From Escherichia coli (GTDB lineage Bacteria; Pseudomonadota; Gammaproteobacteria; Enterobacterales; Enterobacteriaceae): DNA of 64,000 bases. The stretch is taken from the NCBI RefSeq assembly GCF_045037415.1, contig NZ_CP173438.1, one strand, 5' to 3'. Each line of letters begins with the position of its first letter. Within the stretch, counting starts at the first letter, position 1. Below, one piece after another: positions 13,186 through 15,945 of the stretch. The notes below the pieces were generated by a model. The model was not told the DNA's origin. It did not search any database and worked only from the letters and a program-made list of their open reading frames with translations. Made by a program: the position numbers and the translations under genes.

Positions 13186-13370
13186 ACGGTATAAAAACGG
13201 GGCTGGGGATCACGCCGGGTGAGCACATTATCAGTGCCGACTCTGCGCTCAGCAGAAATATCCGGCATTGTTTCTGCCTTTCCTGGTAAGCGTAAACTGA
13301 CCGCCGTATGTAGCCATCAGACGAGAATTGGTAACTTAGACGCCCATCTGATATAGACGGACATCTAAGT

Positions 13371-13796
13371 ATGGAATTACAGGACTGGCGAAAAGAACCT
13401 CGTAAAAACTATTCGAATGAATTCAAACTTCGTATGGTGGAACTGGCATCACAACCTGGAGCTTGTGTTGCACAGATTGCACGTGAAAATGGCGTCAATG
13501 ATAATGTTATTTTCAAATGGCTCAGGCTCTGGCAGAACGAAGGGCGTGTTTCGCGGCGTCTTCCGGTAACGACCTCTTCTGACACTGGCGTTGAATTATT
13601 ACCTGTAGAAATAACGCCGGATGAGCAGAAAGAACCTGTGGCGGCCATTGCGCCGTCTTTATCCACTTCCACTCAGACCAGAGTCAGTGCCAGTTCCTGC
13701 AAGGTGGAATTCCGTCACGGTAACATGACGCTGGAAAATCCATCGCCAGAGCTGCTCACAGTGTTGATCCGTGAACTGACCGGGAGGGGAAGATGA
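13371..13796 (+). CDS. IS66-family accessory protein TnpA (orfA)
   Basis: 141 aa; NEFKLRMVELA...FKWLRLWQNEG. Confidence 0.9.
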   Translation: MELQDWRKEPRKNYSNEFKLRMVELASQPGACVAQIARENGVNDNVIFKWLRLWQNEGRVSRRLPVTTSSDTGVELLPVEITPDEQKEPVAAIAPSLSTSTQTRVSASSCKVEFRHGNMTLENPSPELLTVLIRELTGRGR

Positions 13797-14143
13797 TCTC
13801 ACTCCCATCAGGTACCCGTATCTGGCTCGTTGCCGGCGTTACCGATATGCGTAAATCCTTCAACGGACTGGGAGAACAGGTACAACATGTGCTGAATGAT
13901 AATCCCTTCTCCGGTCACCTGTTTATCTTCCGTGGCCGACGGGGTGACACCGTCAAAATTCTTTGGGCTGATGCTGATGGTCTGTGCCTGTTCACCAAAC
14001 GCCTGGAGGAAGGCCAGTTTATCTGGCCTGCGGTACGTGACGGCAAGGTATCCATTACCCGCTCGCAACTGGCAATGCTCCTCGATAAGCTGGACTGGCG
14101 TCAGCCAAAAACATCCAGCCGTAACTCACTGACAATGTTGTAA
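13793..14143 (+). CDS. IS66-family TnpB (orfB)
   Basis: 116 aa; ...LFIFRGRRGDTVKILWADADGLCLFTKRLEEG; start overlaps orfA stop (ATGA). Confidence 0.9.
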   Translation: MISLPSGTRIWLVAGVTDMRKSFNGLGEQVQHVLNDNPFSGHLFIFRGRRGDTVKILWADADGLCLFTKRLEEGQFIWPAVRDGKVSITRSQLAMLLDKLDWRQPKTSSRNSLTML

Positions 14144-14173
14144 AAAACTCCTGACCGCATTATAAAAACGGTC

Positions 14174-15787
14174 ATGAGTCAGAAATACCTCATTCGCATC
14201 GCAGAGCTGGAAAGGTTGCTCTCTGAGCAGGCTGAAGCCCTCCGTCAGAAAGACCAGCAACTGAGTCTGGTTGAAGAGACGGAAGCCTTCCTGCGCTCTG
14301 CACTGACACGTGCCGAAGAAAAGATCGAAGAAGATGAACGGGAAATAGAACATCTGCGGGCTCAGATAGAAAAACTGCGCCGGATGCTGTTCGGTACCCG
14401 TTCTGAAAAACTGCGTCGTGAAGTTGAACTGGCTGAGGCTCTGCTGAAACAACGTGAACAGGACAGCGATCGTTACAGTGGGCGGGAAGACGATCCTCAG
14501 GTTCCCCGCCAGTTGCGACAGTCGCGCCATCGTCGTCCGTTACCGGCACACCTTCCCCGTGAAATACACCGCCTGGAGCCAGAAGAAAGCTGTTGCCCGG
14601 AGTGTGGCGGTGAGCTGGATTATCTGGGGGAAGTCAGCGCTGAACAGCTGGAACTGGTGAGCAGTGCCCTGAAAGTGATCCGCACAGAACGGGTAAAAAA
14701 AGCCTGTACAAAATGTGACTGTATTGTTGAAGCACCGGCGCCGTCCCGCCCGATAGAGCGTGGTATCGCGGGCCCCGGATTACTTGCCCGCGTGTTAACG
14801 GGAAAATACTGCGAACATCTGCCACTGTATCGTCAGAGTGAAATCTTTGCCCGCCAGGGTGTCGAACTGAGCCGGGCCTTACTCTCCAACTGGGTTGACG
14901 CGTGCTGCCAGTTAATGACACCGGTGAATGATGCCCTGTACCGTTATGTAATGAACACCCGCAAGGTTCACACTGATGACACACCGGTAAAGGTACTGGC
15001 ACCGGGTCAGAAAAAGGCGAAAACAGGGCGTATCTGGACGTATGTCCGGGATGATCGCAATGTGGGTTCGTCATCTCCTCCAGCGGTCTGGTTCGCGTAC
15101 TCGCCGAACCGGCAGGGGAAACACCCGGAGCAACACCTCCGCCCCTTCCGGGGTATCCTGCAGGCGGATGCGTTCACAGGTTACGACAGGTTGTTCAGTG
15201 CAGAACGTGAAGGTGGTGCACTGACAGAAGTTGCGTGCTGGGCCCATGCCCGGCGAAAAATCCACGATGTATACATCAGCAGCAAAAGTGCGACGGCAGA
15301 AGAAGCCCTGAAGCGAATCAGTGAACTGTACGCCATCGAGGATGAAATACGGGGATTACCGGAGTCAGAGCGTCTTGCCGTCAGGCAGCAGCGAAGCAAA
15401 GTGTTACTGACGTCGCTGCATGAATGGATGGTGGAGAAGAATGGTACGCTGTCGAAAAAATCCAGACTGGGCGAAGCGTTCAGCTATGTACTGAATCAGT
15501 GGGATGCCCTCTGTTATTACAGTGATGACGGTCTGGCGGAGGCGGATAATAATGCTGCGGAAAGAGCGCTTCGTGCAGTCTGTCTCGGAAAGAAAAACTT
15601 TATGTTCTTTGGCAGCGATCACGGCGGCGAGCGTGGAGCACTGTTGTACGGGCTGATCGGCACCTGCCGTCTGAACGGTATCGATCCGGAAGCGTATCTG
15701 CGCCATATCCTGAGCGTACTGCCGGAATGGCCTTCCAACCGAGTTGACGAACTCCTGCCATGGAACGTAGTACTCACCAATAAATAA
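14174..15787 (+). CDS. IS66-family transposase TnpC
   Basis: 537 aa; N-terminal coiled coil, CPECG zinc motif, conserved [13 protein letters not shown]. Confidence 0.92.
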   Translation: MSQKYLIRIAELERLLSEQAEALRQKDQQLSLVEETEAFLRSALTRAEEKIEEDEREIEHLRAQIEKLRRMLFGTRSEKLRREVELAEALLKQREQDSDRYSGREDDPQVPRQLRQSRHRRPLPAHLPREIHRLEPEESCCPECGGELDYLGEVSAEQLELVSSALKVIRTERVKKACTKCDCIVEAPAPSRPIERGIAGPGLLARVLTGKYCEHLPLYRQSEIFARQGVELSRALLSNWVDACCQLMTPVNDALYRYVMNTRKVHTDDTPVKVLAPGQKKAKTGRIWTYVRDDRNVGSSSPPAVWFAYSPNRQGKHPEQHLRPFRGILQADAFTGYDRLFSAEREGGALTEVACWAHARRKIHDVYISSKSATAEEALKRISELYAIEDEIRGLPESERLAVRQQRSKVLLTSLHEWMVEKNGTLSKKSRLGEAFSYVLNQWDALCYYSDDGLAEADNNAAERALRAVCLGKKNFMFFGSDHGGERGALLYGLIGTCRLNGIDPEAYLRHILSVLPEWPSNRVDELLPWNVVLTNK

Positions 15788-15945
15788 GCGTCAATACGGT
15801 GCTCCGTTGACGCTTACCTTTCCTGTCATGGCCGGTTGATTCTGCAGACAGATGCTCAGGGGGCGTGGTTTGAGCATGATTTACATGCCCTGAGTGAGCA
15901 ACAGAAGGGTAAGCGTGCAGCAAGAACCGTATTGACGGGGATGTG

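What the first reader, a model, noticed from the sequence alone, without database searches (positions are those of the whole stretch)
13278..15825. Intact IS66-family insertion with a perfect 8-bp target duplication 91 bp from the hybrid element
CTTTCCTG is repeated at 13278-13285 and 15818-15825, flanking GTAAGCG... and ...CGCTTAC termini, the signature of a clean, probably recent transposition. Its proteins are only about 80 to 90 percent identical to those of the neighbouring hybrid element, so two distinct IS66-family members sit tail to tail.
Basis: seen in the sequence. Interest (0 to 1): 0.3.

Follow-up and report, generated by a model that had tools for sequence, protein, structure and literature searches.

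The report
ISEc23 insertion in ST131 pheV island
This is an intact copy of the catalogued E. coli insertion sequence ISEc23 (IS66 family) that jumped cleanly into an already broken gene in the pheV virulence island of an ST131-type chromosome; it is real and well supported, but ordinary.

Summary
CTTTCCTG lies at 13278-13285 and at 15818-15825. The two copies flank a 2,532-bp element (13286-15817) with imperfect terminal inverted repeats that start GTAAGCG (20 of 24 bases match). The element carries three intact genes, tnpA, tnpB and tnpC, which match the IS66-family protein models.

The element is 100% identical over its full length to copies that RefSeq names "IS66-like element ISEc23" in many E. 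coli genomes.

The predicted empty site exists. An 800-bp reconstruction with a single CTTTCCTG matches 640 complete E. coli genomes at 100% in one piece, including EC958 and JJ1886. The filled junctions occur in only 61-69 genomes. Six identical copies at different sites, including this one, each carry a different perfect 8-bp duplication.

The window is the GI-pheV island of ST131-type E. coli (Ag43, nan, iha, sat, aerobactin, pap). The target was a zinc-ribbon pseudogene that the neighbouring composite IS66 element had already truncated.

That neighbour is 79-92% identical in TnpA, TnpB and the truncated TnpC. Its complete TnpC is only 64% identical, so three IS66 lineages are present, not two.

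This is a known element doing a known thing, so interest is low.

The parts
13278..13285 (.). Left copy of the 8-bp target-site duplication CTTTCCTG
   Evidence: Present once in the empty-site genomes.
13286..15817 (+). Complete ISEc23 (IS66 family), 2,532 bp
   Evidence: 100% identical over its full length to copies annotated 'IS66-like element ISEc23'. Exact string match in loci L001, L002, L004-L007, L009 and L010.
13286..13309 (+). Left terminal inverted repeat (IRL), GTAAGCGTAAACTGACCGCCGTAT
   Evidence: (pair I7)
13371..13796 (+). tnpA, 141 aa, HTH accessory protein. Its stop codon overlaps the tnpB start codon in the sequence ATGA.
   Evidence: Pfam HTH_Tnp_1, E = 5e-12. NCBIfam IS66_ISRel24_TnpA, 83 bits against a cut-off of 74. 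RefSeq protein WP_000422741.1.
13793..14143 (+). tnpB, 116 aa, IS66 Orf2-type accessory protein (unrelated to the TnpB of IS200/IS605)
   Evidence: Pfam TnpB_IS66, E = 1e-36. NCBIfam IS66_TnpB, 121 bits against a cut-off of 50. RefSeq protein WP_000624722.1.
14174..15787 (+). tnpC, 537 aa, DDE transposase
   Evidence: Pfam LZ_Tnp_IS66, zf-IS66, DDE_Tnp_IS66 (profile positions 1-283 of 284, E = 9e-98) and DDE_Tnp_IS66_C. NCBIfam transpos_IS66, 452 bits against a cut-off of 180. RefSeq protein WP_000080195.1, 'ISEc23 family transposase'.
15794..15817 (-). Right terminal inverted repeat (IRR); reads GTAAGCGTCAACGGAGCACCGTAT on the minus strand
15818..15825 (.). Right copy of the 8-bp target-site duplication CTTTCCTG
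13182..13285 (+). 5' piece of the interrupted target, a 'putative zinc ribbon protein' pseudogene remnant (DUF7828 in newer annotations)
   Evidence: RefSeq annotation of p4A. In EC958 the remnant is a single uninterrupted 186-nt piece.
15818..15907 (+). 3' piece of the same pseudogene remnant. It ends where the neighbouring composite IS66 element begins.
15909..19473 (-). Neighbouring composite IS66-family element (context only). It comprises an IRL identical to ISEc23's over 24 nt, tnpA, tnpB, a tnpC truncated at 366 aa, then a complete tnpC of a third lineage with its own end. It has no target duplication (ACAGAAGG on one side, CATGTATC on the other).
   Evidence: (pairs I1, I3)

Best explanation
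Window 13286-15817 is an intact copy of ISEc23, an IS66-family insertion sequence. It transposed into a single CTTTCCTG site in the GI-pheV island of an ST131-type E. coli chromosome, and the event was inherited by a minority sublineage.

Inferred mechanism, from what is established for the IS66 family: the DDE transposase TnpC acts together with the accessory proteins TnpA and TnpB, and tnpA and tnpB are translationally coupled through the ATGA overlap. TnpC recognises the GTAAGCG... terminal repeats, makes cuts staggered by 8 bp in the target, and joins the element ends to them. Repair of the two gaps then produces the 8-bp direct repeat.

The target was a zinc-ribbon pseudogene that the adjacent composite IS66 element had already truncated, so the insertion itself is most likely neutral. 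The copy still appears able to act. In one carrier genome (strain R12) a 22.9-kb deletion starts exactly at the element's right end.

Shown here: the element's structure, its identity, the empty site, the distribution among genomes and the variable duplications. Inferred: the biochemical steps, the direction of change (insertion rather than excision) and neutrality.
For: - Structure: 8-bp repeats, terminal repeats and three ORFs.
- Family models.
- Identity: 100% over the full length to RefSeq-annotated ISEc23; 2,095 records have a best match of at least 99%.
- Empty site: 800/800 identical in one piece in 640 genomes, including EC958 and JJ1886.
- Filled junctions: left in 69 genomes, right in 61 genomes, all listed rows at 100%.
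- The flanking 8 bp is target, not element: six identical copies at different sites, including this one, have six different perfect 8-bp duplications. Further copies from IMG/VR contigs also have 8-bp duplications.
- Possible plasmid donors: ISEc23 is reported on the ST131 plasmid pEC958 (PMC4398462).
- Island context; literature.
- Continued activity: the R12 deletion runs from window position 15818 to 38719, starting exactly at the element's right end. It is unique to R12.
Against: Nothing contradicts this explanation, but four points were not tested directly.
- No direct comparison with the ISfinder reference entry was possible. The name ISEc23 rests on the RefSeq/PGAP annotation.
- The direction of change (insertion, not precise excision in 640 genomes) is inferred from allele frequencies and from the rarity of precise excision. 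No strain phylogeny was built.
- Transposition activity of this particular copy was not measured.
- The R12 deletion could instead have arisen from a second, transient ISEc23 copy followed by homologous recombination.
Confidence: 0.96

Rival explanations
1. The insertion is ancestral in the island, and the 640 'empty' genomes lost it by precise excision (slippage between the two CTTTCCTG copies). On this view the filled state would be old rather than recent.
For: Precise excision between target duplications would leave exactly the single-copy empty site that is observed. No phylogeny was built here to fix the direction of change.
Against: - Precise excision of DDE insertion sequences is rare (established knowledge). 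It would need to be either ancestral to most of ST131 or repeated many times.
- The filled allele is the minority: 61-69 genomes against 640.
- The copy has zero differences from ISEc23 copies on other replicons, which argues for a young insertion.
- Other ST131 genomes carry ISEc23 at different sites in the same island with this site empty, as expected for ongoing independent insertions.
Confidence: 0.03
2. The 8-bp repeat is a coincidence. On this view the element arrived with the surrounding DNA by homologous recombination or by a rearrangement between IS66 copies, not by transposition into this site.
For: The island is rich in IS66-family sequence. The neighbouring composite element has no target duplication and clearly did arise by rearrangement.
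Against: - The flanks on both sides are 100% identical to the empty-site genomes, and removing exactly one repeat copy plus the element restores that sequence to the base.
- The chance of an 8-of-8 flank match is about 1.5e-5.
- Every other intact ISEc23 copy examined in its original context shows the same kind of 8-bp duplication.
Confidence: 0.01

Closest known systems
ISEc23 (IS66 family; named in ISfinder and used by RefSeq/PGAP and in the ST131 plasmid literature, e.g. pEC958, PMC4398462)
   Same: Identical. All 2,532 bp match at 100% the copies annotated as ISEc23 on chromosomes and plasmids. The three protein accessions are the same. The duplication is 8 bp, as at the other copies.
   Different: Only the insertion site differs. 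This site, in the GI-pheV zinc-ribbon pseudogene, is found in 61-69 of 5,426 complete E. coli genomes.
IS679 and the canonical IS66-family elements (Han et al. 2001, J Bacteriol 183:4296; Gourbeyre et al. 2010, Res Microbiol 161:136; both recalled from memory and seen only as references)
   Same: The organisation is tnpA-tnpB-tnpC with a tnpA/tnpB ATGA overlap. The terminal repeats start GTAA, the duplication is 8 bp, and TnpC is a DDE transposase with zinc-finger and leucine-zipper regions.
   Different: It is a different member of the family. The requirement for all three genes was shown for IS679 (from memory), not for ISEc23, and was not tested here.
The neighbouring composite IS66 element at 15909-19473
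   Same: Its left terminal repeat is identical over 24 nt. About 1.9 kb is 89% identical at the DNA level (pair I1). TnpA, TnpB and the truncated TnpC are 79%, 91% and 92% identical.
   Different: The neighbour is a rearranged composite. Its ISEc23-like tnpC is cut at 366 aa and is followed by a complete tnpC of another lineage that is 64% identical. It has no target duplication. It is present in both the empty-site and the filled genomes, so it predates the ISEc23 insertion.

Membership tests
IS66 family | DDE transposase of the IS66 type (TnpC) | tested here: met
   Pfam DDE_Tnp_IS66 covers profile positions 1-283 of 284, E = 9e-98, together with zf-IS66, LZ_Tnp_IS66 and DDE_Tnp_IS66_C. NCBIfam NF033517 scores 452 bits against a cut-off of 180.
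IS66 family | Accessory genes tnpA (HTH) and tnpB (IS66 Orf2) lie upstream of tnpC on the same strand, with overlapping tnpA and tnpB | tested here: met
   ORFs at 13371-13796, 13793-14143 and 14174-15787. Pfam HTH_Tnp_1 and TnpB_IS66. NCBIfam IS66_TnpB scores 121 bits against a cut-off of 50, and IS66_ISRel24_TnpA scores 83 against 74. The ATGA overlap is visible at 13793-13796.
IS66 family | Imperfect terminal inverted repeats of about 20-30 bp that begin 5'-GTAA | tested here: met
   GTAAGCGTAAACTGACCGCCGTAT against GTAAGCGTCAACGGAGCACCGTAT: 20 of 24 positions match (pair I7).
IS66 family | 8-bp target-site duplication | tested here: met
   CTTTCCTG on both sides, and a single copy in the empty-site genomes. 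Five other identical copies have different 8-bp duplications.
IS66 family | Transposition requires tnpA, tnpB and tnpC (shown for IS679, recalled from memory) | not testable with these tools
   This needs genetics, such as a mating-out or papillation assay with knock-outs of each gene.
ISEc23 (the specific element) | Near-identity of the DNA and the transposase to the ISfinder reference entry | tested here: inconclusive
   ISfinder was not available. As a proxy, the element is 100% identical to copies that RefSeq/PGAP names 'IS66-like element ISEc23 family transposase'. This is very likely a match, but the reference entry itself was not compared.

The most novel reading that the evidence does not exclude
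ISEc23 may repeatedly hit the IS-rich module junctions of GI-pheV in ST131 through a regional preference or local hopping. At least three independent insertion sites are seen in complete genomes: window 13278-85, about 12267-74 and 38114-21. A fourth is likely at 38761-68 in an IMG/VR contig. From those positions it may erode virulence modules; in strain R12 the nan genes and iha are lost in a 22.9-kb deletion anchored at the element's end. On this reading, the insertion in the window would mark a sublineage and would be an active driver of change in the island's content, not a passive passenger.
Probability: 0.25. Interest if true: 0.25.

Novelty: already known. Interest (0 to 1): 0.08.

Why it matters
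It matters little beyond housekeeping. The insertion is a clean, correctly bounded example of ISEc23 transposition. It can serve as a presence/absence marker for a sublineage of ST131-type E. coli (61-69 of 5,426 complete genomes). It also adds another stretch of IS66-family homology to an island whose virulence modules (Ag43, nan, iha, sat, aerobactin, pap) are known to be shuffled and lost through their flanking insertion sequences. The single-genome 22.9-kb deletion in strain R12 shows that consequence directly. Nothing here is new about mechanism or about the family.

Tried and rejected
1. Target preference for sequences resembling the element's own ends. Among the first seven independent ISEc23 sites, four had the terminal heptamer GTAAGCG/CGCTTAC within 100 bp of the insertion point. 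The naive probability was about 1e-5 to 1e-4. I then collected more sites by scanning IMG/VR contigs for the left terminal repeat (33 loci); together with one site from the genome collection these gave 31 further independent sites. None of the 31 had the heptamer within 100 bp. Overall the counts were 3 of 39 left flanks and 1 of 18 right flanks, against a background of about 2.5% per 100 bp. I rejected the idea as a small-sample effect. The first seven sites were biased towards the IS66-rich island.

2. The scan of the one-genome-per-species collection for the ISEc23 left end gave only one contig, labelled as a Clostridia MAG. It was of no use for site statistics.

3. A 400-bp query for the R12 deletion junction was confounded by a nearby ISEc23 copy in other genomes, whose matching pieces were joined across the gap. 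Repeating it with a 120-bp junction query showed the deletion in R12 only.

4. The primary IS66-family papers (Han 2001, Gourbeyre 2010) are not in the held library. The family's defining features are therefore cited from memory and marked as such.

5. I considered whether ISEc23 and the neighbour, which have identical 24-nt left ends in inverted orientation at 13286 and 19473, moved together as a 6.2-kb composite. The outer flanks (CTTTCCTG and CATGTATC) do not match, and the neighbour is present alone in the empty-site genomes. Rejected.

Full report
**Observation.**
The sequence at the stated coordinates is as described. CTTTCCTG occupies 13278-13285 and 15818-15825. GTAAGCG begins at 13286 and CGCTTAC ends at 15817. 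The enclosed element is 2,532 bp.

Its ends are GTAAGCGTAAACTGACCGCCGTAT on the left and the same kind of sequence, GTAAGCGTCAACGGAGCACCGTAT, on the right when reverse-complemented. These match at 20 of 24 positions (pair I7).

Once the ends are fixed by the inverted repeats, the chance that the two adjoining 8-mers are identical is about 1.5e-5. The 8-mer occurs only five times on the + strand of the window.

**Anatomy.**
Three + strand ORFs fill the element.

| Gene | Coordinates | Size | Pfam models matched |
|---|---|---|---|
| tnpA | 13371-13796 | 141 aa | HTH_Tnp_1 |
| tnpB | 13793-14143 | 116 aa | TnpB_IS66 |
| tnpC | 14174-15787 | 537 aa | LZ_Tnp_IS66, zf-IS66, DDE_Tnp_IS66 (full length, E = 9e-98), DDE_Tnp_IS66_C |

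The tnpA stop codon overlaps the tnpB start codon in ATGA. TnpB and TnpC exceed the curated NCBIfam cut-offs for the IS66 models, and TnpA exceeds the cut-off of one of the two IS66 TnpA models.

**Identity.**
The 2,532 bp are 100% identical over their full length to elements that RefSeq annotates as 'IS66-like element ISEc23'. These lie on many E. coli chromosomes and plasmids. Matches occur in 4,795 of 5,426 complete genomes, and 2,095 records have a best match of at least 99%. Exact string matches were confirmed in eight fetched loci. ISEc23 is a named element in the literature, for example on the ST131 plasmid pEC958 (PMC4398462). ISfinder itself could not be queried.

**Context.**
The first 25 kb of the window match ST131-type chromosomes at 100%. 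The annotation of strain p4A lists Ag43, YfjI, a nan/sialic-acid cluster, iha, sat, iucABCD-iutA and pap, separated by IS remnants. This is the GI-pheV island described for EC958 and other uropathogenic strains (PMC4134206, PMC11537424).

ISEc23 splits a 'putative zinc ribbon protein' pseudogene remnant (DUF7828 in newer annotations). That remnant is already cut short by the neighbouring IS66 element. The insertion itself should therefore have no effect on phenotype (inference).

**Empty site.**
I joined 400 bp of left flank, including one CTTTCCTG, to 400 bp of right flank.
- This 800-bp reconstruction matches 640 complete genomes at 100% in a single piece, among them EC958, JJ1886, JJ1887 and MNCRE44.
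- The filled left junction occurs in 69 genomes and the right junction in 61. All listed rows are at 100%, and several of these genomes are labelled O25b:H4-ST131.
- The neighbouring composite element is present in both the empty and the filled genomes, so it is older than the ISEc23 insertion.

The simplest reading is one insertion within ST131-type diversification that was then inherited. No phylogeny was built, so the direction of change is an inference. It rests on allele frequency, on zero divergence of the copy, and on the rarity of precise excision.

**The 8 bp is a duplication of target DNA, not part of the element.**
Six identical copies in six different contexts each carry a different perfect 8-bp repeat: CTTTCCTG, GGGAAGGT, GCTCTTTC, ACATAAAA, CGTACTTG and GATAAAAA. 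A seventh, in strain E41-1, carries AAAGTATC. Further copies in IMG/VR contigs also carry 8-bp duplications with no evident consensus.

**Neighbour.**
The element at 15909-19473, on the minus strand, has these features:
- Its left terminal repeat is identical to that of ISEc23 over 24 nt.
- About 1.9 kb is 89% identical to ISEc23 at the DNA level (pair I1).
- TnpA is 79% identical, TnpB 91%, and a TnpC truncated at 366 aa is 92%.
- A complete TnpC of a third lineage follows, only 64% identical to that of ISEc23, with its own end at 15909.
- Its outer flanks, ACAGAAGG and CATGTATC, do not match. It is therefore a product of rearrangement, not a simple insertion.

Three IS66 lineages are juxtaposed here.

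**Mechanism (inferred from family knowledge).**
TnpC is a DDE transposase. It acts with TnpA and TnpB to bind the GTAAGCG... ends, cut the target with an 8-bp stagger and join the ends. Gap repair then yields the direct repeats. The requirement for all three genes was shown for IS679 (Han et al. 2001, recalled from memory and not readable here). It has not been shown for ISEc23.

**Consequences seen in relatives.**
- In strain R12 the left junction is intact, but DNA from window position 15818 to 38719 (22,902 bp) is missing. The lost stretch includes the composite IS66 element, the nan cluster and iha. The deletion starts exactly at the ISEc23 right end. It is unique to R12 among 5,426 genomes, and sister isolates keep the full structure. 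This is the pattern of an IS-adjacent deletion and suggests this copy is still active.
- ISEc23 also sits at other sites in the same island in other ST131-type genomes: about 1 kb upstream in the inovirus-Gp2-family gene in Ecol_656 and at window-equivalent 38114-38121 in E41-1.

**A lead followed and rejected.**
Four of the first seven sites had the terminal heptamer GTAAGCG/CGCTTAC within 100 bp. This hinted that the element targets sequences resembling its own ends. Thirty-one further independent sites showed none. The overall rate was 3 of 39 left flanks, against a 2.5% background per 100 bp. The hint was a small-sample artefact from the IS66-rich island.

**Verdict.**
The element is the already catalogued ISEc23, and this very insertion is already annotated in dozens of public genomes. 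The finding is ordinary and already known.

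Noticed in passing
L009 (E. coli R12, NZ_CP107153.1) 11732/11733; window 15818-38719: R12 carries the same ISEc23 left junction, but a 22,902-bp deletion starts exactly at the ISEc23 right end. It removes the right duplication copy, the composite IS66 element, the nan cluster and iha, and ends just before the IS600 remnant. It is unique to this genome among 5,426. This is the pattern of an IS-adjacent deletion.
   Followed up: yes
L002 (Ecol_656) 12275-14806, about window 12267-12274; L010 (E41-1) 1669-4200 = window 38114-38121; L021 1393-3924, right flank = window 38761 onward: Other genomes carry ISEc23 at different positions in the same GI-pheV island while the 13278 site is empty (shown for Ecol_656 and E41-1): in the inovirus-Gp2/YagK gene (duplication GGGAAGGT), upstream of the IS600 remnant (AAAGTATC), and in an IMG/VR contig inside the IS600-like sequence (TTTTTTTA; this copy has 5 SNPs). 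This could be a regional hot spot, or simply tolerated insertions in dispensable DNA.
   Followed up: partly
window 15909-19473: The neighbouring composite IS66 element has no target duplication (ACAGAAGG against CATGTATC). Its left terminal repeat is identical over 24 nt to ISEc23's and lies in inverted orientation to it. A 366-aa truncated tnpC abuts a complete tnpC of a lineage that is 64% identical to ISEc23's. How this junction at about 17483 formed was not worked out.
   Followed up: partly
L019 (IMGVR_UViG_2687453408_000007), minus strand, 256 bp; L036 (IMGVR_UViG_2693429662_000016), minus strand, 1,539 bp: These are internally deleted ISEc23 derivatives that keep both ends and a perfect 8-bp duplication (ACCATCAC and CATGCCAG). 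The 256-bp one has no room for the element's genes, so it was either mobilised in trans or deleted after insertion.
   Followed up: no
window 13086-13485 (left junction) and 15618-16017 (right junction): The left junction is found in 69 genomes and the right in only 61. Besides R12, about seven carriers therefore have some rearrangement to the right of this ISEc23 copy. They were not identified.
   Followed up: no
L011 (CAMBHV010000085.1, labelled 'uncultured Clostridia bacterium' MAG), 196-2727 on the minus strand: An ISEc23 copy with zero mismatches to the window copy lies in a contig binned as Clostridia. It has an AT-rich duplication, TTATTTAC. This is either a binning error or contamination, or a recent transfer far outside the Enterobacteriaceae.
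   Followed up: no
L003 (p4A) 23475-24808 and 37570-38138, about window 48475-49808 and 62570-63138: In the p4A annotation, iucD (aerobactin synthesis) and papA are marked as frameshifted pseudogenes. Whether the window carries the same frameshifts was not checked. p4A differs from the window by indels in this part.
   Followed up: no
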